From TPA_inf: Saccharomyces (Eukaryota): a DNA stretch of 64,000 bases. Below, one piece after another: positions 3,565 through 42,578 of the stretch. Each line of letters opens with the position of its first letter. The stretch's first letter is position 1. The position numbers and the translations under genes were made by a program. The stretch is taken from positions 448,001 through 512,000 of the forward strand of contig BK006939.2 of assembly GCA_000146045.2 (NCBI GenBank), written 5' to 3'. Below the pieces are notes generated by a model. That model did no database searches, was not told where the DNA came from, and saw only the letters and a list, made by a program, of their open reading frames with translations.

Positions 3565-5235
3565 ATGCAACACAAGGATACGGCAGTAGCGAAGGACACA
3601 GCTAAAAAACGTTTACTGAGAAGAAATAGTGCGCCGTCAGCTATACATATAATTTCACGATTAGACAAAAAGTGGTCCTTCCTATGGAATACTATAGATA
3701 GACACAATATTGTTGAAGAGCAAGATGAAAGTAGCGCTGCAAAAAGCGAAGAAGAACATGAGGATGATTATGAATTGGAACAATTACTCAACATGATAAG
3801 AATACCAATGTTCCTGGAAAAGTTCATGCTCTTTGCACTTTTAACAAGCTTGGACTGTTTTTTGTATTACTTTACTGTATTACCGATACGACTGATAAAG
3901 GGATATGTAAAGCAATTCAAGAGTTATCGTCAGCATTATCGCCTGCAACAACGGTCTGGGCATAAGAATAAAATACCCTTTCGATATAGAATAACTTCAA
4001 GAGAATATAAAGAGAGATGTATGATTTTTATCATCGTGATTTCATCCATTTTGTTGAGCAAACTAGACACCTCAAAACTATATCACAGGATAAAACGGCA
4101 AAGTACGATGAAATTGTACATGCTATTCAGTGTACTGGAAATGGCGGACAAAATGTTGGCAAGTTTGGGCCAGAGCTTATTAACGGTTATGCTTTCTAGG
4201 AAAAACTCGGAACGGATATTACTGCATAAATGTTTGTTAGTGTCAATGAGCTTGACATATGTGACTATACACGGCTATGTATTGGTTTACCAGGCCATTT
4301 CATTAAACATAGCCGTGAATTCGTATTCCAATGCCTTGCTAACTTTATTACTATCCATGCAATTTGCAGAAATCAAATCATCGGTTTTAAAGAAATTTGA
4401 TAAGGAGGGATTTTTCCAAATAACCATTGCAGACGTAGTGGAAAGATTTAAGTTGACCTTATTATTGTCAATAACTGGCCTTAGGAACCTCCAGTCGTGG
4501 TCATCTTCATTATCGAACACAAGCATCAATTTCTGGAGTCCACGTTCCACATTATCAATCGTCATTAACATACTTTGTGGGCCGATGGTAAGCGTGGTAG
4601 GGAGTGAAGTGTTAGTGGATTGGGCAAAGCATGCTTACATCACAAAATTCAATCGGATCCGCCCACAGATATATGATAAGTTCTATTATATAATATACAA
4701 GGATTATTCTACGAGAACGCACAAATTAGAAGATAGATTGGGATTGCCTTTACCTGCATTCGTTGTCCTTTTTATTGTAATGGTGAGGCCAACACTTTTT
4801 AAATCATCGGAACCTTCTTACCTTCCTTCGCTATTTAGGATCCTCTTCATGGGGGCATCCGTGTTTTTACTAGCATTGTTGGCAAAATTTACACTAGATC
4901 TTATTTTAATCAAATGGAGCAAACGGATAGAGCAACGGTTCAGAGACCAAGCTTTCAATACCGTTGTAACTGAAGAAGAATACGTCCCAGGTTTACTCTC
5001 GGGCGGTATGGGTAAAGTCGACGTGTCTACAAGAATTGCATTACATTCTGATTACAATAAAGAGAATCGTATAGAGACCGAAAGTGTATCGCCAATGCGG
5101 AAAAGAAAAACTACTTTAACTGCTGAATGTACTCCTCCTAGCCTAAATGATATTAGAAGACAGAAAGATTCCAAGAATCCACGATCGCTTGAAAATGTCG
5201 CTCGCTATAAAATGGTTTCTAAAAGAATATGGTAA
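3565..5235 (+). CDS. EMP65: ER membrane protein Emp65 (YER140W), 556 aa, multi-pass membrane protein.
   Basis: The ORF track gives 572 aa from 3517. The internal Met at 3565 (MQHKDTAVAK) gives 556 aa. It contains several hydrophobic segments. Confidence 0.8.
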   Translation: MQHKDTAVAKDTAKKRLLRRNSAPSAIHIISRLDKKWSFLWNTIDRHNIVEEQDESSAAKSEEEHEDDYELEQLLNMIRIPMFLEKFMLFALLTSLDCFLYYFTVLPIRLIKGYVKQFKSYRQHYRLQQRSGHKNKIPFRYRITSREYKERCMIFIIVISSILLSKLDTSKLYHRIKRQSTMKLYMLFSVLEMADKMLASLGQSLLTVMLSRKNSERILLHKCLLVSMSLTYVTIHGYVLVYQAISLNIAVNSYSNALLTLLLSMQFAEIKSSVLKKFDKEGFFQITIADVVERFKLTLLLSITGLRNLQSWSSSLSNTSINFWSPRSTLSIVINILCGPMVSVVGSEVLVDWAKHAYITKFNRIRPQIYDKFYYIIYKDYSTRTHKLEDRLGLPLPAFVVLFIVMVRPTLFKSSEPSYLPSLFRILFMGASVFLLALLAKFTLDLILIKWSKRIEQRFRDQAFNTVVTEEEYVPGLLSGGMGKVDVSTRIALHSDYNKENRIETESVSPMRKRKTTLTAECTPPSLNDIRRQKDSKNPRSLENVARYKMVSKRIW

Positions 5236-5458
5236 TCTAAGATCCGCATTTATCGCGGCTTACGGCTTTCGGATATTTCGTATATTGCAAGGAGCAAAAA
5301 AGAAACCCTGCTTACTAAAAAGCTATTGTTTTGCAGTTTATAAGTTCTTGCCTTTTGAATTATTGATCTTTCCTTTATCGTTTATTTAGTTTCCTATTGT
5401 AACTTGGAACTGTATTATATAATAGTGCACAGCACTGAAGTTGTAACTACTGTACGTC

Positions 5459-6919
5459 ATGCTTTTCAGAAACATAGAAGTGGGCAGGCAGGCAGCTAAG
5501 CTATTAACGAGAACCTCGAGTCGTTTGGCCTGGCAAAGTATTGGGGCCTCAAGGAATATTTCTACCATCAGACAACAAATCAGAAAGACTCAACTATATA
5601 ATTTTAAGAAAACTGTGAGCATCCGTCCATTTTCTCTCTCCTCCCCTGTTTTTAAACCACATGTTGCTTCAGAATCAAACCCTATAGAATCACGTTTGAA
5701 GACCTCGAAGAATGTTGCTTACTGGTTAATAGGTACATCCGGTTTGGTATTTGGTATTGTTGTTCTTGGTGGGTTGACTAGACTAACAGAATCGGGGCTG
5801 AGTATTACCGAATGGAAACCTGTCACAGGTACTTTGCCCCCTATGAACCAGAAGGAATGGGAAGAAGAATTTATCAAGTATAAGGAATCACCAGAATTTA
5901 AATTGTTGAATTCTCACATTGATTTAGACGAGTTCAAGTTTATATTTTTTATGGAGTGGATTCATAGATTGTGGGGTCGTGCTATCGGCGCTGTTTTTAT
6001 ATTACCTGCAGTTTATTTCGCTGTATCTAAAAAAACTTCAGGCCATGTCAATAAGAGGTTGTTTGGTCTCGCAGGTTTATTAGGATTACAAGGATTTGTT
6101 GGTTGGTGGATGGTGAAGTCTGGTCTTGATCAAGAGCAACTAGACGCAAGAAAATCAAAGCCTACCGTTTCTCAATATAGACTTACTACGCATTTGGGTA
6201 CCGCCTTCTTTTTATACATGGGTATGCTCTGGACTGGTTTGGAAATATTGAGAGAATGTAAATGGATTAAGAACCCTGTTCAAGCCATTAGTCTCTTCAA
6301 AAAATTAGATAATCCCGCAATTGGCCCAATGAGAAAGATTTCTTTAGCTTTGTTAGCGGTGTCTTTCCTTACCGCTATGAGTGGCGGTATGGTTGCCGGT
6401 TTGGATGCTGGTTGGGTCTATAACACCTGGCCAAAAATGGGTGAACGATGGTTCCCTAGTTCTCGTGAATTAATGGACGAAAACTTCTGTAGAAGAGAGG
6501 ACAAGAAAGATCTGTGGTGGAGGAATTTGCTAGAAAACCCGGTTACAGTTCAGTTGGTCCATAGGACATGTGCGTACGTTGCGTTTACATCAGTACTAGC
6601 TGCTCATATGTACGCTATCAAAAAGAAGGCCGTAATTCCAAGGAACGCGATGACCTCTTTGCATGTTATGATGGGCGTCGTTACTTTACAAGCAACACTT
6701 GGTATTTTAACTATATTGTACCTAGTCCCAATATCGTTAGCTTCTATCCATCAAGCTGGTGCTTTGGCGTTGCTAACAAGTTCTTTGGTGTTTGCCTCTC
6801 AATTAAGGAAGCCAAGAGCTCCGATGAGAAACGTAATCATTACCTTGCCACATTCAAGCAAAGTAACTAGCGGTAAAATTTTAAGTGAAGCGTCGAAGTT
6901 AGCCTCGAAACCATTATAA
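5459..6919 (+). CDS. COX15: Heme A synthase Cox15, a mitochondrial inner-membrane protein, 486 aa.
   Basis: A 486-aa ORF with an N-terminal mitochondrial presequence (MLFRNIEVGRQAAKLLTRTSSRLAW), multiple transmembrane helices and the conserved His-containing heme A synthase regions. Confidence 0.9.
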   Translation: MLFRNIEVGRQAAKLLTRTSSRLAWQSIGASRNISTIRQQIRKTQLYNFKKTVSIRPFSLSSPVFKPHVASESNPIESRLKTSKNVAYWLIGTSGLVFGIVVLGGLTRLTESGLSITEWKPVTGTLPPMNQKEWEEEFIKYKESPEFKLLNSHIDLDEFKFIFFMEWIHRLWGRAIGAVFILPAVYFAVSKKTSGHVNKRLFGLAGLLGLQGFVGWWMVKSGLDQEQLDARKSKPTVSQYRLTTHLGTAFFLYMGMLWTGLEILRECKWIKNPVQAISLFKKLDNPAIGPMRKISLALLAVSFLTAMSGGMVAGLDAGWVYNTWPKMGERWFPSSRELMDENFCRREDKKDLWWRNLLENPVTVQLVHRTCAYVAFTSVLAAHMYAIKKKAVIPRNAMTSLHVMMGVVTLQATLGILTILYLVPISLASIHQAGALALLTSSLVFASQLRKPRAPMRNVIITLPHSSKVTSGKILSEASKLASKPL

Positions 6920-9805: not shown

Positions 9806-12223
9806 TCAAAAAATTCTTTCGTAAAATAAAACATATGCACTGGGTGTGATAAATTCAGTACTAAACGTTATAGGACGATAAAGCGAGTCATCGAAAAAAT
9901 ACCAACCTTTTTTTGGTCCCTTATAAACGTATGAAGTATAGTGTCCCCCATACAAACTCCCCGAATGACATGCAACCCCATACAGTCTGTATCTAAATGG
10001 TGGTACTTGGCCCCTGGTAGGAATGTCCTCATTAACAATAGCTTCATGATTAAAATCTCTCGCCCAATATGGTGTAAGATCTAAGGAGTAAGGATATTGG
10101 ACAAACACATTATTCTTATTCATTTGATTGTCAAATCGTTTCAAATTAATAATTAGTTTCTTAGGCAATCTAGTAATCTTCAGTTGTTTAGTGGAAGGCT
10201 GCTTTTTTAAGCATTTAGGACATGACCATTGTTCATCGACACCTAACCTTTCGCATTTGGTGAATTCCCGGAAACAGTCTAATATGTTACAAGTTTTAAC
10301 GCGTGGGACAGGAACAGAAAGAACAGAGAATGTTTGGTAAGTTGTGGAGGTATGTTCACAAACTTGACATTGTAGCCTAGATGCGTACTGTCCTTGGAAA
10401 AGGTCAATTATCGCACTGAAGTCGGTAAGCAAAAATCTTTCCCACTCGAGAGCACTAGCTTTGCGTATGGACATTTTTTCTCTCATTCGTTCTTCCTCAT
10501 CTGATAACTGTTTAAGATGCTTTTTGCTGCCGTTTTGGTTCAAATCCTCGTGCAAGCCATCAAGCAAAAATTGACAAAATTCTTGACAATCTTGCTGCAT
10601 TGAATCACTATACATGGGGTTGATATGGCCGCAAATTTTTTTAAACTGAATAGTCTGAACTGGTATCGTTCTTACGTTAGGAGGTGTGAATGCACCGTGT
10701 CTGTGCATATTATTGACCAAGATGGCGAAATTTTTAGCTAGCAACCCCTTAGAACCTCTTGAACTATCAAAATTAATAAAATTCAGATATGTGTTATCCA
10801 AAAACATTCGAACCAAATCGTGTGTTCCCACCAAACATTGAAGTATACAGTTCATATAACAACAGTTACCTATATTTTCCAATCCTACTATAAGATCTAG
10901 ATCAAGCACTTGTGAGTTGTTTAGGATGGTCTGCCTCGACGAAGACAAGTTCTGTTGTGGTAAAGGCGGAATACGTGGCGAGAATACATTCGATGCAGGG
11001 GGCAAATAGGCATGGGCTTGTGCAGCGCGGATATCTGGCGATATTCTTTCCACAGTGTTTGCTTTATTTTGAATGGTCGAGGGTGTATTGAGTTTTGAGA
11101 GAGTGGTTGGTGGATGTGGACTAAATTTTTGAACGGTGGGAGAATTTCTGTTGGGGCTTGGTTGCGGTATAATGGGCAAATCTGAATAGTATAAGGGTAA
11201 TTGAGGCCTTTGCACCGTTGTTAGCAAAGGCTGCGTATTCATGGATACCATCGGCATACTCTTATCTTTATTTGGAGATAGAGATTTCTGATTGAACAAG
11301 CCTGTTGGGACTTGCGGACTACCAAAAGCTGGCGTTGAAGACGAGGATGTAAGATGCGCTGTTTCACTGACAGATGATTGATACGCCCCACCTAATTTAA
11401 CCCAGTTTGAGAACCCATTTTCCAAAATGAGTATTTTCGTCCCACTCAGCGGTTTAATTACTGAATTTTGGGAAAGAATCTTCGCAAGGATGCGAGTTTG
11501 CCTTTGCTGGAAATTATTATGCAATTGAGTGTCAGTATATAAAATAATGAACTTGAACTTGTCTCGATTTGAAAAGAAAGTGATATCTGAGTGCGGCGAA
11601 GTGATCAAAGAGACACTTTCAATTTGTTGGTCTGTAAAAGAATCCTTAAATGAGGCAGGATCGATGCATATAATGTTTTTGCATTTGATATGGGCCCTAA
11701 CGAATTCAGACCTGGGCCGTACATCGATAAGCAAGAGAGCGTCACCATGAAAATGCAACATTGAACTTAATTTTCCAGGCTCTATAGTTTGCAACTGTAT
11801 AAATTTAGGGTAATTTTCAATGACATTTCGAATCCGCTCAATATTTGGGTCATTATGCAAAAGCTGGATTCTCTCCCCGTACAAATTTCTAACATTCTGG
11901 TCCTTGTTGCTCGAAAATTCCTTTAGTCTTGGTAGAGTATCCTCCAAGAGCGTATATACGATCATGTAATATAAAAAAGCTGTTTCATTCAATCGGAGAA
12001 ACCCCTTTGACAACCGGTTTGCATCTTCTTTAGGGGCCTGCATGGTTATATCCTGGCATGCGTCCACATAACTAGACCATATTTCTGCGCATTCTTGGAG
12101 CAAAGGCAGACACTCTTGTGGCACGTCGTCATCATCAAGAAACTTCTGAACTAAATGCCTAAGCCTGCCGAACCGCTCTTTAGCAGATTCGACAACCTCA
12201 CTTAAGGCTTGTTCTGAGCCCAT
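9806..12223 (-). CDS. UBP5: Ubiquitin-specific protease Ubp5, 805 aa, with a rhodanese domain and USP catalytic domain.
   Basis: The ORF track gives 900 aa from 12508. The Met at 12223 (MGSEQALSEVVES) gives 805 aa. The Cys box (GLENIGNCCYMNCILQCL) and His box (YRLYGVACHSGSLYGGHYTSYV) are present. Confidence 0.9.
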   Translation of the reverse strand: MGSEQALSEVVESAKERFGRLRHLVQKFLDDDDVPQECLPLLQECAEIWSSYVDACQDITMQAPKEDANRLSKGFLRLNETAFLYYMIVYTLLEDTLPRLKEFSSNKDQNVRNLYGERIQLLHNDPNIERIRNVIENYPKFIQLQTIEPGKLSSMLHFHGDALLLIDVRPRSEFVRAHIKCKNIICIDPASFKDSFTDQQIESVSLITSPHSDITFFSNRDKFKFIILYTDTQLHNNFQQRQTRILAKILSQNSVIKPLSGTKILILENGFSNWVKLGGAYQSSVSETAHLTSSSSTPAFGSPQVPTGLFNQKSLSPNKDKSMPMVSMNTQPLLTTVQRPQLPLYYSDLPIIPQPSPNRNSPTVQKFSPHPPTTLSKLNTPSTIQNKANTVERISPDIRAAQAHAYLPPASNVFSPRIPPLPQQNLSSSRQTILNNSQVLDLDLIVGLENIGNCCYMNCILQCLVGTHDLVRMFLDNTYLNFINFDSSRGSKGLLAKNFAILVNNMHRHGAFTPPNVRTIPVQTIQFKKICGHINPMYSDSMQQDCQEFCQFLLDGLHEDLNQNGSKKHLKQLSDEEERMREKMSIRKASALEWERFLLTDFSAIIDLFQGQYASRLQCQVCEHTSTTYQTFSVLSVPVPRVKTCNILDCFREFTKCERLGVDEQWSCPKCLKKQPSTKQLKITRLPKKLIINLKRFDNQMNKNNVFVQYPYSLDLTPYWARDFNHEAIVNEDIPTRGQVPPFRYRLYGVACHSGSLYGGHYTSYVYKGPKKGWYFFDDSLYRPITFSTEFITPSAYVLFYERIF

Positions 12224-12525
12224 TACGCTTGTGCCTATTTGTGTAGAGAGATAATAAAGAAAGGACTCCACATACGTTGGAGAATACCTAGCAACTAAAT
12301 ATAGCTGGTGTTTACTTGATGTGTTGAAGTGAGGCGCAAGGAAAAAAGAAAAAAAATCAATGCCCGGTAGATCAATTGGACCAGGGGTTCTTGTTTTGCG
12401 ACGCCGTACAGACAAGGCCAACTTTATAAAAACGATATTAGAAATTATTGTATATATGTATATAAATGTAGTATTTTTATCAACAGAAAATAGGTGGAAA
12501 ACTCCCACCCTGTGCTAGACTTCAT

Positions 12526-17302: not shown

Positions 17303-18025
17303 ATGGCCGATGAGGAACGTTTAAAGGAGTTTAAAGAGGCAAACAAGATAGTGTTTGATCCAAATACCAGACAAGTATGGGAAAACCAGAATCGAGATGG
17401 TACAAAACCAGCAACTACTTTCCAGAGTGAAGAGGACATAAAAAGAGCTGCCCCAGAATCTGAAAAAGACACCTCCGCCACATCAGGTATTGTTCCAACA
17501 CTACAAAACATTGTGGCAACTGTGACTTTGGGGTGCAGGTTAGATCTGAAAACAGTTGCGCTACATGCCCGTAATGCAGAATATAACCCCAAGCGTTTTG
17601 CTGCTGTCATCATGCGTATTAGAGAGCCAAAAACTACAGCTTTAATTTTTGCCTCAGGGAAAATGGTTGTTACCGGTGCAAAAAGTGAGGATGACTCAAA
17701 GCTGGCCAGTAGAAAATATGCAAGAATTATCCAAAAAATCGGGTTTGCTGCTAAATTCACAGACTTCAAAATACAAAATATTGTCGGTTCGTGTGACGTT
17801 AAATTCCCTATACGTCTAGAAGGGTTAGCATTCAGTCATGGTACTTTCTCCTCCTATGAGCCAGAATTGTTTCCTGGTTTGATCTATAGAATGGTGAAGC
17901 CGAAAATTGTGTTGTTAATTTTTGTTTCAGGAAAGATTGTTCTTACTGGTGCAAAGCAAAGGGAAGAAATTTACCAAGCTTTTGAAGCTATATACCCTGT
18001 GCTAAGTGAATTTAGAAAAATGTGA
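17303..18025 (+). CDS. SPT15: TATA-binding protein (TBP), 240 aa.
   Basis: The 240-aa ORF matches the yeast TBP sequence I recall along its whole length ([20 protein letters not shown]... two direct repeats, ...[10 protein letters not shown]). Confidence 0.97.
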
Positions 18026-18207: not shown

Positions 18208-19470
18208 TCATAGCATATCTGGTGGATCGTCTCTATTAAGCGCCAGCGAGGTGTTTGCCTCTGCATTTTTCAGCAAAGCAAGCTCCCTTTCCAGCTTGAA
18301 TCTATGTTCACGCTCATCCGACAATTCTTTTTCATACTTTCTTTGTGTACTCGTAAGCACTTTTTTAAACTCACTTGTCATTATTGAAAGTGAACGTGAT
18401 CCAGAACCGCTTGTGGGGCTTCCTACAGAGGAAGGTGAACTTGGATCCCAAGTCACCGGCGAACTCGCTGGTGATGACATGCCGAAATTATGTCTGCTTG
18501 AATTCAGCTTGTTGTTGGCTTTTTCAAGTTCTTTATTTTCCTGCTCCAATTCGTGTAATTTCTTTTCAGTTTTACTCAAATTCGAGTGGTTGTTTAATAA
18601 CTTATCTTGTAATTCTCTGTTAGTCCGCGTTAGCTTCTCGATATCTTGTACATATTCGGCACGGTCATTCTCGAATTGCTTAGTCAAGAAATTGTGTGCC
18701 AGTTGCAAATCACTAAATGCCGTTTCTAGTTCTTCTAATTTTTTAGAGGAGTCTTCCTCTTGAATTGCAGCGGCGTTAGGCGAAATAGGTGGTGATGACG
18801 TATTTTTTTCTAGACTGACGCAGGTATCCAAGATAGAATTTATCCCATTTTTCAAGAACTTCACAGGGTCATCTAATGGTATTGGCTTGATATCAATGCC
18901 TTTCTGAATGGAGTTTGACATCAAGAAGGACGTTAATTCTTGAAGTATTTCATTTTTATCGTCATCAGCTTTGTCAGTATGGTAAGCACCCTTGTTAAAT
19001 TTATCTGTGCCACCCATATTAGTGGAAGACCTCGCTCTTTTAGAATTTGGGAAACTGTTGTTGTTTTCCTTCGTAAGCTGGTCTATCCCTGTAGTGTTAA
19101 TGGATTCAAGGATCCTCAGCATCATTTCATACCAATCCGCAGACTTCGGCTGCAGCTTCAGCAACTCATTGAGTGTGGGATTTAGATCATCAGAGTTCAA
19201 GTGCTCTTTTTGAACGTAGTATAGGGCGAACTCAGACACTAGCTTTTTGTCAAGGTCTATTTCTGACTCGTCATTTTTACTTCTATACAGAAGATAGTCA
19301 AAATAGTCAATGGAAGTGTATGGTCTACTATTGTGATGCGGATGTGACGGATTTTGGGAGAGAAGGTACTGTTTCAATTCATCGTATTTCAATGGATACT
19401 CTTCGTATCGTTCTGCACTAAAAAGCAAAGGGTTCGCTCTTCTCGAGAGCTCTAGATCAAATTTATGCAT
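18208..19470 (-). CDS. PEA2: Polarisome coiled-coil protein Pea2, 420 aa.
   Basis: The Met at 19470 gives 420 aa. It has an extensive heptad-repeat coiled coil (LQDKLLNNHSNLSKTEKKLHELEQENKELEKANNKL). Confidence 0.85.
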   Translation of the reverse strand: MHKFDLELSRRANPLLFSAERYEEYPLKYDELKQYLLSQNPSHPHHNSRPYTSIDYFDYLLYRSKNDESEIDLDKKLVSEFALYYVQKEHLNSDDLNPTLNELLKLQPKSADWYEMMLRILESINTTGIDQLTKENNNSFPNSKRARSSTNMGGTDKFNKGAYHTDKADDDKNEILQELTSFLMSNSIQKGIDIKPIPLDDPVKFLKNGINSILDTCVSLEKNTSSPPISPNAAAIQEEDSSKKLEELETAFSDLQLAHNFLTKQFENDRAEYVQDIEKLTRTNRELQDKLLNNHSNLSKTEKKLHELEQENKELEKANNKLNSSRHNFGMSSPASSPVTWDPSSPSSVGSPTSGSGSRSLSIMTSEFKKVLTSTQRKYEKELSDEREHRFKLERELALLKNAEANTSLALNRDDPPDML

Positions 19471-19989
19471 ATGAAACGTGATATCCACCGTTATTCTCCC
19501 TCTCGAACACAGGACTTCGATAGTATCTTTTGTAATCTGTTCAGCTCAACTATTTGTTACCATACCATCATCATCACTTTACACATACTCATCATGTGTT
19601 TATTGACGCGAGCGCGACTTGCAAGAAAAGGCATAATTGTGGCGAGGTAATGAAAAATTTTTGACGTTTCCCTCATTCATTCATACATAACATTTTGGGA
19701 TTTTGGAACAAGGCGAGAGGAGAACGTCTTTGGACCACTGTAATAGTACACAATGCAAGATATTTTAAGTTTATGCTAAAAATCCAGAAGTGACGCTTCA
19801 TCAACGGTGTCAATATGGACCGAATTTTAGTGTATCTTCAATTGTAACCGTGAGGAGTAGACTCTTTGAATACGGGGGAAGAAGAAATATCATATTCAAA
19901 GCTAATTCATTGAAATTAGTGCTTGTCTCATCTAGCCTTTAGTGCTTAATCTCTGGAGGAGCACATATGGGGTTAAAGCCATGCCGGGA

Positions 19990-20120
19990 CTGGGGGCCCC
20001 TATCGGGGCTCGAACCCGAATCCCGCGAGTATTTATTTGAAGGTCCGGGACGCAAGTTACCTAATCTGGTTAATTGATATCCCATTTAGGCGATGACGTT
20101 CCTTCCCCTCACCCCTCGGC
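19990..20120. promoter_or_regulatory. GC-rich island upstream of SPI1 with three STRE cores (CCCCT), a perfect GGGGCCCC palindrome and a B-box-like GGTTCGAGCCC.
   Basis: CCCCT occurs at 19997-20001, 20105-20109 and 20112-20116. GGCTCGAACCC at 20007-20017 (reverse complement GGGTTCGAGCC) is one mismatch from the Pol III B-box consensus GGTTCGANTCC. Confidence 0.5.
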
Positions 20121-20369
20121 TTGTTAGAAGATCTATTGTTATAGCCTCCTCTGGAAGAATTTATGCCAGATGAAGAAAAAAACTTCTCGAAGTTCCCAGA
20201 TGCCCAAATGAGGGCTTTCCATCCCTGTTAGCTGGAAAAGTGTAAGTATATCTATATAAAAAGTCGGCCTACTTTTGCCAGGTTCGTCTTTCACTTGCAC
20301 TCTCTTGATCTTACTTTCTACTCAAAAAGAATCCAATACACAAAAATAAAATCAGTACTATTACTAATA

Positions 20370-20816
20370 ATGTTGTCTAACGCTAAGCTCCTTCTATCAT
20401 TGGCCATGGCCTCTACGGCTCTCGGATTGGTATCTAATTCTAGTTCCTCTGTAATCGTGGTACCATCAAGCGATGCTACTATTGCCGGTAACGATACAGC
20501 CACGCCAGCACCAGAGCCATCATCCGCCGCTCCAATATTCTACAACTCGACTGCTACTGCAACACAGTACGAAGTTGTCAGTGAATTCACTACTTACTGC
20601 CCAGAACCAACGACTTTCGTAACGAATGGCGCTACATTCACTGTTACTGCCCCAACTACGTTAACAATTACCAACTGTCCTTGCACTATCGAGAAGCCTA
20701 CTTCAGAAACATCGGTTTCTTCTACACATGATGTGGAGACAAATTCTAATGCTGCTAACGCAAGAGCAATCCCAGGAGCCCTAGGTTTGGCTGGTGCAGT
20801 TATGATGCTTTTATGA
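20370..20816 (+). CDS. SPI1: GPI-anchored, Ser/Thr-rich cell-wall protein Spi1, 148 aa.
   Basis: The internal Met at 20370 ([19 protein letters not shown]) gives a signal peptide, an S/T-rich body and a C-terminal GPI signal ([13 protein letters not shown]). The ORF track starts 25 codons upstream. Confidence 0.85.
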
Positions 20817-21426: not shown

Positions 21427-21500
21427 TTCTTAAATGTTCATCTCCAAGAAATAATTGGTTTCGTGGTCTAGTCGGTTATGGCATCTGCTTAACACGCAGA
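21427..21500 (+). tRNA. tV(AAC): tRNA-Val (anticodon AAC), 74 nt, no intron.
   Basis: GGTTTCGTGGTCTAGTCGGTTATGGCATCTGCTTAACACGCAGAACGTCCCCAGTTCGATCCTGGGCGAAATCA gives a cloverleaf with A box, B box GGTTCGATCC and anticodon loop CTTAACACG. A T6 terminator follows immediately. Confidence 0.95.
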
Positions 21501-21506
21501 ACGTCC
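21501..21506 (+). terminator. RNA polymerase III terminator (T6) of tRNA-Val.
   Basis: TTTTTT lies directly 3' of the tRNA. Confidence 0.8.
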
Positions 21507-21611
21507 CCAGTTCGATCCTGGGCGAAATCATTTTTTAAATATGCCAAGCATAAAGTGTAACTCTGTTTCTCTGTCTGTCTCTATTTCTTTTTTAAAATCG
21601 TGCTCACTATC

Positions 21612-40856: not shown

Positions 40857-42578
40857 TTATAAGTAGTAATGTGTATACTTAGCGCTATCCTGGTGAACGC
40901 GCATTTCCTTTCTTTTGAACTCATTCACCTCCATTTTGATTTCAATATTGGATATATTTTTTGTGGATGAGAGATTATTACCGACAAAAGTAGAAGGATT
41001 GGTAATGTCTTGGCTCTTTCCTTTAAAGAAATTATTCAAAAAGGTATTATCACACCTGCAATAGTCCGCGGCGGACCACGTATCGTTTACATAAATCTCA
41101 TCCGCAAAGCGTAAGGATTTGACGGCATTTTTAGATTTCGATGACCCTGAAGAAGGGGCAGGTGTTGGCGAAGAAGATATGGATTGCATTGGTCCACGGG
41201 AAACCAACGATGACGAGGACGAAGAAGAAGGAGCCGGCGATGATATTGAAGAGTTTATGAACGAAGAGTTCGCAGCATCAGTAGTGGTAGAGAGAGAAGA
41301 TGGCACAGAAGCAGTCAAAGGCAATTTGTTTAAATACACGGTAGACCATTCATCCTGCAAACGCTTTAAGAAAACGGTGCTCTTTTCCTCTGGAGCAATA
41401 TCTTCATTAGACGAATCTTGACTACAGTAGTATAACTTTGTAGTTCGTTTATCAGACAGTGTAGGTCTGTTTGGTGACCTAGGGGGTGGAAGAACTGGTA
41501 TCCTGTTATTATCTCCGAGTGCTGTCAATTCTTGTACTATGCCAGAGTCCTTAATTGAAGGTACAGCCGTTTCGTGATTGTTAACGGTTGAAAAACTCTG
41601 TTTTATAATTTCAACCGGTTGGTCAAGGGACGTTATCGGTTCTGGTACAACTCTCTCCGGATTTTTCCTTTTCTGCTTTGTTTTGCTATTCTCTTCTACG
41701 GAATCTGCAGAATTTGATGACTTGGACGACCAGATTTTCCTGAAGAAACGAGATATCTTTTTAGAATTTGATCTAATTGCCTTTGGAGACTCGGATTCAG
41801 ATTTCTGATTAGCATCAGCAGCTTTCGTTTGTTGAGGAGAACGATTGTTCGTGCCAGTGGCAATGGAATCGTTATCTGCGGAAGATGGGCCTCCAGTCTG
41901 GGTCAAAGGCAACGATGAACTAGAAGGAGAGTCGGGAAAAGTCGAAGATGGCGGAAGCCTTGCTATCTGGTTTCTTGGCGTGAAATTTTCACCGTTGGGG
42001 AATTGAAAAGCGCTTTTCATCTGCTTTCTTTGTAATTGGAAAGGAGTAAGTTCCTTCCTAACACGTGGATTAGAATAGGTAGGCGGGGATGATCGGAGAC
42101 TGTAGCGACTACCAGAGTACTTTTCGGGAATGGTCATTAAGGAGTGGCGTCTGGACGGGTTTGGTCTACAACGATATTGCGGGTGCGCATTGTGATCACT
42201 GGTAGTATGGTTGTTCATGTTCATGTTCATGTTCATGTTCATGTTCATATTCATATTCATATTCATATTCATGTTATCGTAGCGAGAGGGGCGATTTCTA
42301 GTTGAAGGCAGAGATGAAGTCGAGGAGGAAGCAAAGTTAGGTTTATTGTACTGGCGCATCGGTGCGCCATTACCATTATTGTCTGATCTATTAGCCACCA
42401 GAGTAGAGTGCCTCCTTGAGACGGTAGCATCCGGTATGTAGAACAGATCAATCGTAGACGCAGATCTAGCGTCCACAGCCCTAGGAATACTCAAAGAGTC
42501 TCTCCTTGAAGGAGAAGTGAGCGTGTGAAAATCATTACCATGCAAACTCCTCCTCGAGGAAGAACCCTGCTGTAACAT
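40857..42578 (-). CDS. YER158C: Ser/Pro/Asn-rich low-complexity protein YER158C, 573 aa, containing a (Met-Asn)n repeat.
   Basis: The 573-aa ORF contains NMNMNMNMNMNMNMNMNMNM, encoded by a hexanucleotide repeat at 42212-42276. Confidence 0.8.
   Translation of the reverse strand: MLQQGSSSRRSLHGNDFHTLTSPSRRDSLSIPRAVDARSASTIDLFYIPDATVSRRHSTLVANRSDNNGNGAPMRQYNKPNFASSSTSSLPSTRNRPSRYDNMNMNMNMNMNMNMNMNMNMNNHTTSDHNAHPQYRCRPNPSRRHSLMTIPEKYSGSRYSLRSSPPTYSNPRVRKELTPFQLQRKQMKSAFQFPNGENFTPRNQIARLPPSSTFPDSPSSSSLPLTQTGGPSSADNDSIATGTNNRSPQQTKAADANQKSESESPKAIRSNSKKISRFFRKIWSSKSSNSADSVEENSKTKQKRKNPERVVPEPITSLDQPVEIIKQSFSTVNNHETAVPSIKDSGIVQELTALGDNNRIPVLPPPRSPNRPTLSDKRTTKLYYCSQDSSNEDIAPEEKSTVFLKRLQDEWSTVYLNKLPLTASVPSSLSTTTDAANSSFINSSISSPAPSSSSSSSLVSRGPMQSISSSPTPAPSSGSSKSKNAVKSLRFADEIYVNDTWSAADYCRCDNTFLNNFFKGKSQDITNPSTFVGNNLSSTKNISNIEIKMEVNEFKRKEMRVHQDSAKYTHYYL
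42212..42276. repeat. Hexanucleotide microsatellite, (GTTCAT)6(ATTCAT)4, inside the YER158C coding sequence.
   Basis: About 11 tandem 6-bp units are visible in the sequence. On the coding (minus) strand they read (ATGAAC/ATGAAT)n, encoding Met-Asn repeats. Confidence 0.9.

What the first reader, a model, noticed from the sequence alone, without database searches (positions are those of the whole stretch)
19975..20120. GC-rich structured island between PEA2 and SPI1 with a B-box-like motif and an STRE cluster
Yeast intergenic DNA is AT-rich, but this roughly 130-bp stretch is more than 60% GC. It contains a perfect GGGGCCCC palindrome and three CCCCT stress-response cores. It also has a sequence one mismatch from the Pol III B box (GGTTCGAGCCC on the minus strand), set in a predicted 5-bp stem with a 7-nt loop that resembles a tRNA T-arm (TCGGG-TTCGAGC-CCCGA). 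I could not build a full tRNA cloverleaf, because there is no complementary acceptor stem. The candidates are therefore an SPI1 Msn2/4-type stress promoter, an extra-TFIIIC (ETC-like) site, or a tRNA gene relic. SPI1 is a stress-induced cell-wall gene, which favours the STRE reading. The B-box-like sequence is the unexplained part.
Basis: seen in the sequence. Interest (0 to 1): 0.5.

Follow-up and report, generated by a model that had tools for sequence, protein, structure and literature searches.

The report
Unlisted extra-TFIIIC site upstream of SPI1
The "B-box-like" sequence between yeast PEA2 and SPI1 is not a tRNA gene but matches the extended B-box that defines the few known "extra TFIIIC" (ETC) sites, is conserved across Saccharomyces species, and has a TFIIIC ChIP signal assigned to SPI1 in a public data table, so it is probably an uncatalogued ETC site at the edge of a stress-gene promoter.

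Summary
The GC figure is overstated: 55% over the stated span, and above 60% only in an 81-nt core. There is no excess RNA structure. The window is S. cerevisiae SPT15-PEA2-SPI1-tV(AAC)-UBP3.

The key result concerns the 23-mer CGGGTTCGAGCCCCGATAGGGGC (19996-20018, minus strand). It matches the 23-bp extended B-box shared by the eight published ETC sites: 18/23 to ETC7, and 11/12 over positions 12-23 to ETC2. It is the top hit in the window for a position weight matrix (PWM) built from those eight sites (18.2 bits, E about 0.04). Its 3' extension alone has P about 1e-4, whereas real tRNA genes in the window score 0 or below on the extension.

The 23-mer lies in a divergent intergene, at the PEA2-side edge of a roughly 195-bp block as conserved across six Saccharomyces species as the flanking coding sequence. 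A published Tfc3 ChIP-seq table lists SPI1 at log2 2.44, equal to ETC6, with values distinct from the neighbouring tDNA.

tRNA models fail, there is no nearby T-run terminator, and no tRNA gene sits here in three outgroups.

The STRE cluster is real, but its cores are less conserved than the B-box.

Verdict: a probable uncatalogued ETC-type TFIIIC site, a new member of a known kind. The likely role as a boundary or modulator between the SPI1 upstream activating region (UAS) and PEA2 is inferred, not shown.

The parts
19996..20018 (-). ETC-type extended B-box 23-mer, CGGGTTCGAGCCCCGATAGGGGC. It lies at -374 to -352 from the SPI1 ATG and 526-548 bp upstream of the PEA2 ATG.
   Evidence: Matches the eight published ETC 23-mers. 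PWM score is 18.24 bits, the top of 128,000 positions in the window, P=3.2e-7. The invariant skeleton TTCGANNCCN5GNNGC occurs once in the window against 0.03 expected. The orthologous 23-mers score 12.9-19.6 bits in four of the five other species.
20006..20016 (-). B-box core GGTTCGAGCCC. The invariant C (tRNA position 56) is window base 20012.
   Evidence: Across six species only the two N positions of GGTTCGANNCC vary (GC, GG, AA, GG, GA, GC), plus position 62 in S. kudriavzevii.
19996..20005 (-). 10-nt 3' extension of the B-box (CGATAGGGGC). It includes the distal CCCCT/AGGGG core and half of the GGGGCCCC palindrome.
   Evidence: The extension alone scores 9.84 bits, P=1.2e-4 at genome composition and 3.9e-3 at 70% GC. 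The three tDNAs in the window score -5.3 to +0.13.
20003..20019 (-). T-arm-like inverted repeat TCGGG-TTCGAGC-CCCGA.
   Evidence: Seen directly in the sequence. One C-to-T change in S. mikatae keeps a G-U pair. No covariation.
19976..20170 (.). Conserved non-coding block (SPI1 upstream region) with the ETC-like 23-mer at its PEA2-side edge.
   Evidence: Over six species, 50-68% of columns are invariant, the same as in the PEA2 and SPI1 coding sequence. The rest of the intergene shows mostly 0-15%, apart from the TATA and PEA2-proximal patches. 1-nt indels rule out coding.
20105..20116 (+). Proximal STRE pair, CCCCTCACCCCT (GAGGGG twice on the minus strand), at -265 to -254 from the SPI1 ATG.
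   Evidence: Both cores are intact in S. cerevisiae, S. mikatae and S. uvarum, one in S. kudriavzevii and S. arboricola, and none in L001.
20057..20074 (-). 18-mer ATTAACCAGATTAGGTAA, identical in all six species. It resembles a D-arm or A-box: CCAG-ATTAGGTAA-CTGG in three species, starting 55 nt upstream of the B-box start.
   Evidence: Whether it is an A-box is inconclusive: by my own count it matches 8 of 11 specified positions of the consensus as I remember it.
20370..20816 (+). SPI1 coding sequence. This is the gene whose promoter holds the element and the feature to which the Tfc3 peak is assigned.
18208..19470 (-). PEA2 coding sequence, the divergent neighbour.
21456..21531 (+). tV(AAC), a real tDNA 1.45 kb away. 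It is a separate TFIIIC target and a possible confounder of low-resolution ChIP.
   Evidence: Its Tfc3 values are 3.20/0.81, against 2.44/1.79 for SPI1.

Best explanation
Window 19996-20018 (minus strand) is an extra-TFIIIC (ETC) type site: a B-box plus the characteristic 10-nt 3' extension.

Proposed mechanism:
- TFIIIC binds here through its B-box-binding module.
- It does not assemble a productive Pol III unit. There is no recognisable tRNA body, no clear A-box, and no T-run terminator within 224 nt.
- The site sits at the PEA2-proximal edge of a conserved SPI1 upstream block of about 195 bp. That block carries the STRE pair and other conserved elements.
- Bound TFIIIC most likely acts as other ETC sites and tDNAs do. 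It would serve as a boundary or roadblock separating the strongly stress-inducible SPI1 UAS from the divergent PEA2 promoter, or it would modulate SPI1 itself.

Shown here: the sequence match to the ETC class, genus-wide conservation, the divergent-intergene position, failure of the tRNA-gene tests, and a Tfc3 ChIP-seq value assigned to SPI1.

Inferred: that the ChIP summit lies on this 23-mer, that TFIIIB and Pol III are absent, and the boundary or modulator function. The element probably descends from the 3' third of a tRNA gene. That concerns origin, not present function.
For: (1) Hiraga et al. 2012 list the eight ETC 23-mers. [quoted passage not shown]
(2) Our 23-mer is 18/23 identical to ETC7. 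Over positions 12-23 it is 11/12 identical to ETC2, and it keeps every ETC-invariant position (T5 T6 C7 A9 G19 G22 C23).
(3) On a PWM built from the eight sites it scores 18.24 bits. Leave-one-out scores of true ETC sites range from 7.1 to 22.5. It is the best of all positions in the window, with P=3.2e-7 and E=0.04 per window.
(4) The extension alone has P=1.2e-4, or 3.9e-3 even at 70% GC. The window's three tDNAs score 0.13 or below on the extension.
(5) The invariant skeleton occurs once in the window against 0.03 expected.
(6) The 23-mer lies inside a block as conserved as coding sequence over six species. Within the B-box, variation falls on the two N positions.
(7) PEA2 and SPI1 are divergently transcribed.
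(8) A Tfc3 ChIP-seq table from YPD-grown cells lists SPI1 at log2 2.44 (Sc-TFC7 strain) and 1.79 (Kl-TFC7 strain).
- This sits next to TFC6 (ETC6) at 2.43/1.97, and above RAD2 (ETC4) at 1.24 and PPM2 (ETC2) at 1.31.
- The SPI1 values match no tRNA row, whereas genes that share a peak with a tDNA carry the tDNA's Sc-TFC7 value, usually both values.
- The neighbouring tV(AAC)E2 is 3.20/0.81 and collapses in the Kl-TFC7 strain. SPI1 falls only 0.65, like ETC6.
- Highly expressed, hyper-ChIPable genes show Kl above Sc, the opposite of SPI1.
(9) No T run of 4 or more lies within 224 nt downstream on the B-box strand.
Against: - The site is not among ETC1-8, ETC9, ETC10, ZOD1 or iYGR033c. Searches of the full-text paper library found no paper naming it.
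- The ChIP table gives a gene name, not a summit position. Peak assignment is described only loosely.
- About 8 matches of this PWM strength are expected by chance across a 12-Mb genome.
- The whole block is conserved, including extension positions the ETC consensus leaves free. Conservation therefore cannot be credited to TFIIIC alone, and an STRE core overlaps the extension.
- S. kudriavzevii carries a degraded extension scoring 4.4 bits, and S. uvarum has lost the G at ETC position 22.
- No function was tested.
Confidence: 0.7

Rival explanations
1. This is purely a Pol II promoter element. The GC-rich core would be part of the Msn2/4 (STRE) and Haa1-type stress UAS of SPI1, bound by zinc-finger or zinc-cluster factors (AGGGG, CGG/CCG triplets). 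The resemblance to a B-box and to the ETC extension would be fortuitous.
For: - This is the only 3-core STRE cluster in the window.
- An AGGGG core lies inside the extension, at ETC 23-mer positions 18-22.
- SPI1 is a documented Haa1 target and stress gene.
- The whole block is conserved, not only the B-box.
Against: - The distal AGGGG core is lost in S. kudriavzevii (ACGGG) and S. uvarum (AGGGA), while GGGTTCGA stays invariant. Both proximal cores are lost in L001.
- Variation inside the B-box falls on its two N positions.
- P=1.2e-4 for the extension and E=0.04 for the 23-mer.
- The Tfc3 ChIP value equals that of ETC6, and its behaviour in the Kl-TFC7 strain is opposite to that of hyper-ChIPable stress genes.
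Confidence: 0.12
2. This is a tDNA relic that still recruits the full Pol III machinery, like ZOD1 or iYGR033c. It would be a poised, weakly transcribed Pol III unit using the A-box-like 18-mer (20057-20074) and the B-box.
For: - A D-arm-like hairpin, CCAG-ATTAGGTAA-CTGG, sits with its A-box-like start 55 nt upstream of the B-box start on the same strand. It is perfectly conserved.
- At relaxed thresholds ARAGORN draws a 70-71-nt pseudo-cloverleaf (GGTAACT...AGGGGCC) in three species.
- Known relics exist.
Against: - The Rfam tRNA model gives no hit even on a 121-nt search space.
- The ARAGORN cloverleaf needs thresholds that also produce spurious hits on both strands, and it uses a different 'D-arm' from the A-box-like 18-mer.
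- There is no T-run terminator within 224 nt.
- The A-box match is weak.
- Fpt1, which marks Pol III-bound relics, was reported only at ZOD1 and iYGR033c.
- No tRNA gene lies next to PEA2 in T. globosa, N. castellii or N. bracarensis.
Confidence: 0.1
3. This is a neutral remnant of a dead tRNA gene with no present function.
For: The T-arm shape, followed directly by an acceptor-like GC-rich strand, looks like the 3' third of a tDNA.
Against: - A neutral relic would have decayed. Most of the surrounding intergene has 0-15% invariant columns over six species, while this block has 50-68%.
- A ChIP signal is present.
Confidence: 0.03
4. This is a small structured non-coding RNA (tRNA-like or mascRNA-like minihelix) encoded on the minus strand.
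For: - A weak mascRNA-menRNA match of 13.8 bits.
- RNAalifold draws GGGGTCCC/GGGGCCCC plus the T-arm. The four one-sided substitutions in paired columns (at three pairs) all keep G-U or A-U pairing on the minus strand.
Against: - The score is far below the family's gathering threshold of 42.5, with E=1.7-9.6.
- Folding z-scores are about -0.7.
- No pair shows a change on both sides, and the shuffle controls equal the observed values.
- No promoter or terminator has been identified.
Confidence: 0.03

Closest known systems
ETC7 (YOR228C-WTM2) and ETC2 (PPM2-ARG8) extra-TFIIIC sites of S. cerevisiae
   Same: The 23-bp extended B-box. Ours is CGGGTTCGAGCCCCGATAGGGGC, ETC7 is GCAGTTCGAACCCCGAACGGGGC (18/23 identical) and ETC2 is ACCATTCGAATCCCGATAGGAGC (11/12 identical over positions 12-23). 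All are intergenic and conserved in sensu stricto species.
   Different: Ours is not in the published list. TFIIIC-only occupancy (no TFIIIB or Pol III) and perinuclear tethering have not been shown for it. It is embedded in a much larger conserved promoter block.
ETC6 in the TFC6 promoter
   Same: An extended B-box inside the promoter of a Pol II gene. The Tfc3 ChIP-seq values are nearly the same (2.43/1.97 for TFC6, 2.44/1.79 for SPI1). ETC6 is reported to let TFIIIC regulate a Pol II promoter (PMC3334521 abstract).
   Different: ETC6 autoregulates a TFIIIC subunit gene. SPI1 is a stress-induced cell-wall gene with no known link to Pol III. No regulatory effect has been tested here.
tDNA relics ZOD1 and iYGR033c/ETC9
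   Same: Degenerate tRNA-derived sequences that keep a functional B-box and influence neighbouring Pol II transcripts.
   Different: Those relics can be traced to tRNA-Ile and tRNA-Arg ancestors and recruit TFIIIB, with or without Pol III. Here no tRNA identity can be assigned, the tRNA covariance model fails, and no syntenic tRNA gene was found.
Canonical tRNA gene internal promoter (A-box plus B-box)
   Same: A B-box with the invariant C, set in a 5-bp stem with a 7-nt loop (T-arm).
   Different: No cloverleaf, no convincing A-box, no terminator. The 3' flank matches the ETC extension, which real tDNAs in the window do not.

Membership tests
ETC (extra-TFIIIC) site | B-box core with the invariant cytosine (GWTCRANNC / GGTTCGANNCC) | tested here: met
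   GGTTCGAGCCC at 20016->20006. Consensus as quoted.
ETC (extra-TFIIIC) site | Conserved 10-base extension 3' of the B-box, shared by all eight ETC sites | tested here: met
   The extension scores 9.84 bits (P=1.2e-4), higher than any leave-one-out ETC extension score. G19, G22 and C23 are present. tDNAs in the window score 0.13 or below.
ETC (extra-TFIIIC) site | Extended B-box conserved among sensu stricto Saccharomyces | tested here: met
   PWM scores: S. cerevisiae 18.2, S. paradoxus-like 14.8, S. mikatae 19.6, S. arboricola 16.9, S. uvarum 12.9. S. kudriavzevii is degraded at 4.4, though its B-box core is intact.
ETC (extra-TFIIIC) site | Location in an intergene, usually a divergent one (a tendency, not strictly defining) | tested here: met
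   PEA2 is on the minus strand and SPI1 on the plus strand, with the 899-bp intergene between their start codons.
ETC (extra-TFIIIC) site | TFIIIC occupancy in vivo | tested here: inconclusive
   A Tfc3 ChIP-seq table lists SPI1 at log2 2.44/1.79, equal to ETC6 and distinct from tV(AAC)E2. The summit position is not given.
ETC (extra-TFIIIC) site | [quoted passage not shown] | not testable with these tools
   Indirect evidence only: no terminator within 224 nt, no tRNA body, and Fpt1 reported at no such site.
tRNA gene or recognisable tRNA pseudogene | Cloverleaf detected by a covariance model or ARAGORN | tested here: not met
   No Rfam tRNA hit at E of 10 or below on 701 nt, on 121 nt, or in five orthologous loci. 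ARAGORN at default settings finds nothing.
tRNA gene or recognisable tRNA pseudogene | A-box at tRNA spacing, and a Pol III T-run terminator | tested here: not met
   First T run of 4 or more is 224 nt downstream. The A-box-like 18-mer is only a weak match and its start lies 55 nt before the B-box start.
tRNA gene or recognisable tRNA pseudogene | A real tRNA gene at the syntenic position in outgroups (the relic test used for ZOD1 and iYGR033c) | tested here: not met
   No tRNA gene lies next to PEA2 in T. globosa, N. castellii or N. bracarensis. An nhmmer profile of the block and the ETC PWM find nothing there.
STRE (Msn2/4) stress promoter | Clustered CCCCT/AGGGG cores upstream of a stress-induced gene | tested here: met
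   Three cores in 146 nt, the only such cluster in 64 kb, with 0.1 expected. SPI1 is a stress and Haa1 target.
STRE (Msn2/4) stress promoter | Cores conserved in related species; Msn2/4-dependent induction | tested here: inconclusive
   Cores are only partly conserved. Dependence on Msn2/4 cannot be tested here.
mascRNA-menRNA (tRNA-like small RNA, RF01684) | Score at or above the Rfam gathering threshold | tested here: not met
   13.8 bits against a threshold of 42.5, with E=1.7-9.6.

The most novel reading that the evidence does not exclude
The conserved block would be a tDNA-derived module (A-box-like 18-mer plus ETC-type extended B-box) on which TFIIIC, or a poised partial Pol III complex, acts as a condition-dependent gate on a stress promoter. 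Occupancy would change with nutrient or acid stress and would set how far the SPI1 UAS can act on SPI1 and on the divergent PEA2. That would be a natural case of TFIIIC directly wired into the environmental stress response of a Pol II gene.
Probability: 0.12. Interest if true: 0.7.

Novelty: new member of a known kind. Interest (0 to 1): 0.45.

Why it matters
Budding yeast has only about ten named TFIIIC-only or relic sites, and their natural function is still unclear. An additional conserved site would give a convenient endogenous test case. It sits at the boundary of a strongly inducible stress promoter that faces a divergently transcribed polarity gene. A single B-box point mutation could show whether TFIIIC insulates or tunes neighbouring Pol II promoters under physiological induction. 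The result also shows that the published ETC consensus, combined with conservation, can recover sites that early ChIP-chip did not list, possibly because a real tDNA lies 1.45 kb away.

Tried and rejected
- tRNA gene or pseudogene: ARAGORN at default settings, and Rfam cmscan at E of 10 or below on 701 nt, on 121 nt and on five orthologous loci, gave no tRNA hit.
- Relaxed ARAGORN: ps60-80 gave a 70-71-nt pseudo-cloverleaf in three species, but also spurious hits on both strands. Rejected as evidence.
- Structured RNA: folding z-scores are not significant. RNAalifold and pair counting showed no compensatory change.
- Outgroup synteny for an ancestral tRNA: none in T. globosa, N. castellii or N. 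bracarensis. In the first two, PPH3 lies next to PEA2.
- Search for the block or an ETC-like site in those outgroup loci: nothing found.
- Identity with ZOD1: rejected. ZOD1 is at YML089C/RPM2.
- Literature search for this locus as a TFIIIC site: no paper names it.
- Papers not held in the library: Moqtaderi & Struhl 2004, Nagarajavel 2013, Guffanti 2006 and Kirkland 2013. The table of TLT (tRNA-like transcript) loci from Turowski 2016 is also not held.
- RNA-seq table for tfc6 mutants: it has only a non-significant Crick-strand segment, YER149C--YER151C_C__005 (4.4-fold, adjusted p 0.80), of unknown position.
- Coding potential of the block: rejected because of 1-nt indels between species.
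Full report
**Context.** ORFs and tRNA calls identify the region as S. cerevisiae SPT15 (17303-18025, +), PEA2 (18208-19470, -), SPI1 (20370-20816, +), tV(AAC) (21456-21531, +) and UBP3. The finding lies in the 899-bp divergent PEA2-SPI1 intergene.

**Observation.**
- GGGGCCCC at 19993-20000;
- CCCCT at 19997, 20105 and 20112;
- GGTTCGAGCCC on the minus strand at 20016->20006;
- the 5-bp stem and 7-nt loop hairpin at 20019->20003.

The GC claim is overstated. GC is 55.5% over 19975-20120, above 60% only in 19980-20060, and 70.6% in 19980-20030. The core does contain the most GC-rich 50-mer of the window.

The STRE cluster is the only one with 3 or more cores per 146 nt in 64 kb, where 0.1 is expected.

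GGTTCGANNCC occurs three times against 0.33 expected. The other two copies are tE(UUC) and a site inside an ORF, so a bare B-box match is weak evidence on its own.

Folding energies do not differ from shuffles (z = -0.77 and -0.60), so 'structured' is not supported.

**Not a tRNA gene.**
- ARAGORN finds only the three annotated tDNAs of the window.
- Rfam gives no tRNA hit at E of 10 or below on 701 nt, on 121 nt, or in five orthologous loci. The only match is a chance-level mascRNA-menRNA hit at 13.8 bits, against a threshold of 42.5.
- Only at strongly relaxed thresholds does ARAGORN draw a 70-71-nt pseudo-cloverleaf, and at those thresholds it also calls spurious tRNAs on both strands.
- The first T run of 4 or more on the B-box strand is 224 nt downstream.

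**Comparative genomics.** I fetched the orthologous PEA2 loci through Pea2 and Spi1 homologues:
- an S. paradoxus-like contig (L001);
- S. mikatae (L002);
- S. kudriavzevii (L005, 99.9% identical to the ZP591 reference);
- S. arboricola (L003);
- S. uvarum (L004).

Window 19976-20170 has 50-68% of columns invariant across all six species. That equals the PEA2 and SPI1 coding sequences. Most of the rest of the intergene shows 0-15%; smaller conserved patches lie at the TATA box and near PEA2. One-base indels exclude a coding explanation.

Inside the B-box, the columns that vary are the two N positions of GGTTCGANNCC (GC, GG, AA, GG, GA, GC), plus position 62 in S. kudriavzevii.

The STRE cores are less constrained. 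Both proximal cores read AGGAG in L001, and one is lost in each of S. arboricola and S. kudriavzevii. The distal core is lost in S. kudriavzevii and S. uvarum.

No covariation supports an RNA helix.

In T. globosa and N. castellii, PPH3 lies next to PEA2. In N. bracarensis the order PEA2, SPI1-like gene, tV(AAC), UBP3 is kept. None of the three has a tRNA gene, a homologue of the block, or an ETC-like site next to PEA2. As far as sampled, the element is specific to the genus Saccharomyces.

**Match to the ETC class.** Hiraga et al. 2012 (PMC3395662) state four things:
- these sites are highly conserved in sensu stricto yeasts;
- the paper's table prints the eight 23-mers.

Put in B-box sense, our sequence CGGGTTCGAGCCCCGATAGGGGC (20018->19996) is 18/23 identical to ETC7. 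Over positions 12-23 it is 11/12 identical to ETC2, and it carries every invariant ETC position.

I built a log-odds matrix (PWM) from the eight published sites, without our site. The results were:
- Our site scores 18.24 bits. Leave-one-out scores of the real ETC sites range from 7.1 to 22.5.
- It is the best of about 128,000 positions in the window, ahead of 14.2 and 13.8 for two sites inside long ORFs.
- The exact P is 3.2e-7, giving E=0.04 per window and about 8 per genome.
It scores 9.84 bits, with P=1.2e-4, or 3.9e-3 under a 70% GC null.
- The three real tDNAs of the window score -5.3 to +0.13 on the extension, so it is not a general tRNA feature.
- The invariant skeleton TTCGANNCCN5GNNGC occurs once in the window against 0.03 expected.
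- The orthologous 23-mers score 12.9-19.6 bits in four of the five other species. S. kudriavzevii scores 4.4 bits.

**Occupancy.** A 2025 preprint (doi 10.1101/2025.01.30.635671) reports Tfc3 ChIP-seq in YPD. Its Supplementary Table S2 lists features with peaks.
- 'SPI1 YER150W' has log2(ChIP/Input) of 2.44 in the Sc-TFC7 strain and 1.79 in the Kl-TFC7 strain.
- It sits directly beside TFC6 (ETC6) at 2.43/1.97.
- It is above RAD2 (ETC4, 1.24) and PPM2 (ETC2, 1.31).
- TIM21 (ETC9) and YOR289W (ETC10) are also in the list.

Three features of the table indicate a separate TFIIIC site rather than an artefact:
- Genes that merely share a peak with a tDNA carry that tDNA's Sc-TFC7 value, usually both values (for example PCL5 = tF(GAA)H1). 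SPI1's values match no tRNA row.
- The neighbouring tV(AAC)E2 is 3.20/0.81 and loses 2.4 log2 units in the Kl-TFC7 strain. SPI1 loses 0.65, similar to ETC6 at 0.45.
- Hyper-ChIPable, highly expressed or stress genes (PMA1, PGK1, SSA2, SED1, HSP150) all rise in the Kl-TFC7 strain, whereas SPI1 falls.

The paper never mentions SPI1 in its text, and the table gives no summit coordinate. This supports occupancy but does not prove it at base resolution.

**Known or new.** The site is on none of the lists I could read:
- ETC1-8, which lie on chromosomes II, IV, VII, X, XIII and XV;
- ETC9 near TIM21, ETC10 at MPD1-YOR289W, ZOD1 at YML089C, and iYGR033c.

Searches of the full-text paper library for the locus together with TFIIIC terms found nothing. 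The original ETC paper and several others could not be read, so prior mention elsewhere cannot be excluded. I suggest, as inference only, that the real tDNA 1.45 kb away may have masked it in low-resolution ChIP-chip.

**Mechanism.**
- Shown: the sequence class, the conservation, the position, a Tfc3 signal, and the lack of tRNA body and terminator.
- Inferred: TFIIIC binds the 23-mer through its B-box-binding module without productive Pol III assembly.

The 23-mer sits at the PEA2-side edge of the conserved SPI1 upstream block. Conservation falls from 0.65 to 0.12 within about 40 bp beyond it.

Bound TFIIIC most plausibly acts as a boundary or roadblock between the stress-activated SPI1 UAS and the PEA2 promoter, or tunes SPI1 itself. 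The reported precedents are:
- ETC sites acting as insulators and barriers;
- ETC9 and tDNAs preventing 5'-extended neighbour transcripts;
- ETC6 acting on the TFC6 promoter.

The T-arm shape and the fact that the 23-mer spans tRNA positions 50-72 suggest descent from the 3' third of a tDNA. No tRNA identity or syntenic ancestor could be found.

**Verdict.** The B-box is best explained as an uncatalogued ETC-type TFIIIC site, a new member of a known kind. Interest is moderate.

Noticed in passing
window 20057-20074: TTACCTAATCTGGTTAAT (plus strand) is identical in all six Saccharomyces species, making it the best-conserved stretch of the intergene. From memory, it has CC-N6-GG spacing and a TTACCTAAT half that resembles Mcm1 (CArG/P-box) operators. 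On the minus strand it also resembles a tRNA D-arm or A-box. Neither reading was tested.
   Followed up: partly
window 20126-20148: AGAAGATCTATTGTTATAGCCTC is almost invariant across six species. It contains ATTGTT (HMG-box or Rox1-like, from memory) and, on the minus strand, a TATAA.
   Followed up: no
window 20093-20099 and 20183-20192: Two further conserved promoter elements: ATGACGT, a CRE-like half site invariant in six species, and CTTCTCGAAG, an HSE-like TTCnnGAA invariant in six species.
   Followed up: no
window 19603-19618: A separate conserved patch about 135-150 bp upstream of the PEA2 ATG: TTGACGCGAGCGCGAC, a CGCG-rich and MCB-like sequence. Its GCGAGCGCG core is invariant in five of the six species.
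   Followed up: no
L001:1480-1500 (orthologue of window 20105-20116): In the S. paradoxus-like contig both proximal STRE cores read AGGAG instead of AGGGG, while the flanking bases are unchanged. This may reflect lineage-specific loss or rewiring of Msn2/4 or Haa1 input to SPI1.
   Followed up: no
L010 (T. globosa) 4879-5802; L011 (N. castellii) 4854-5825: In these outgroups a Metallophos phosphatase gene lies directly upstream of PEA2, and SPI1 is not adjacent. The phosphatase is PPH3-like by synteny, which I recall from memory. The PEA2-SPI1 intergene of Saccharomyces therefore arose by post-duplication gene loss, and the ETC-like element has no detectable counterpart there.
   Followed up: partly
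window 21456-21531; L002:804-877; L003:377-452; L004:791-866; L012:2976-3051: tV(AAC) downstream of SPI1 is syntenic from S. cerevisiae to Nakaseomyces bracarensis. SPI1 is thus bracketed by two TFIIIC targets about 1.45 kb apart in Saccharomyces.
   Followed up: no
window 10535-10557 (+) and 41989-42011 (-): The runner-up matches to the ETC matrix (14.2 and 13.8 bits) both lie inside long ORFs (9806-12508 and 40857-42578). They are probably chance matches, and conservation was not examined.
   Followed up: partly
Supplementary Table S2 of doi 10.1101/2025.01.30.635671 (not in the window): Other non-tRNA features have Tfc3 values that match no tRNA row and fall in the Kl-TFC7 strain: YHR020W, HIP1, YOL106W, MFM1 and YCR015C. 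They may mark further uncatalogued TFIIIC sites.
   Followed up: no
L004:1714-2106: S. uvarum Spi1 is called at 130 aa, against 148 aa in the other species. The middle of the SPI1 CDS (window about 20497-20546) has 0% invariant columns, so it is a fast-evolving or indel-prone Ser/Thr-rich segment.
   Followed up: no
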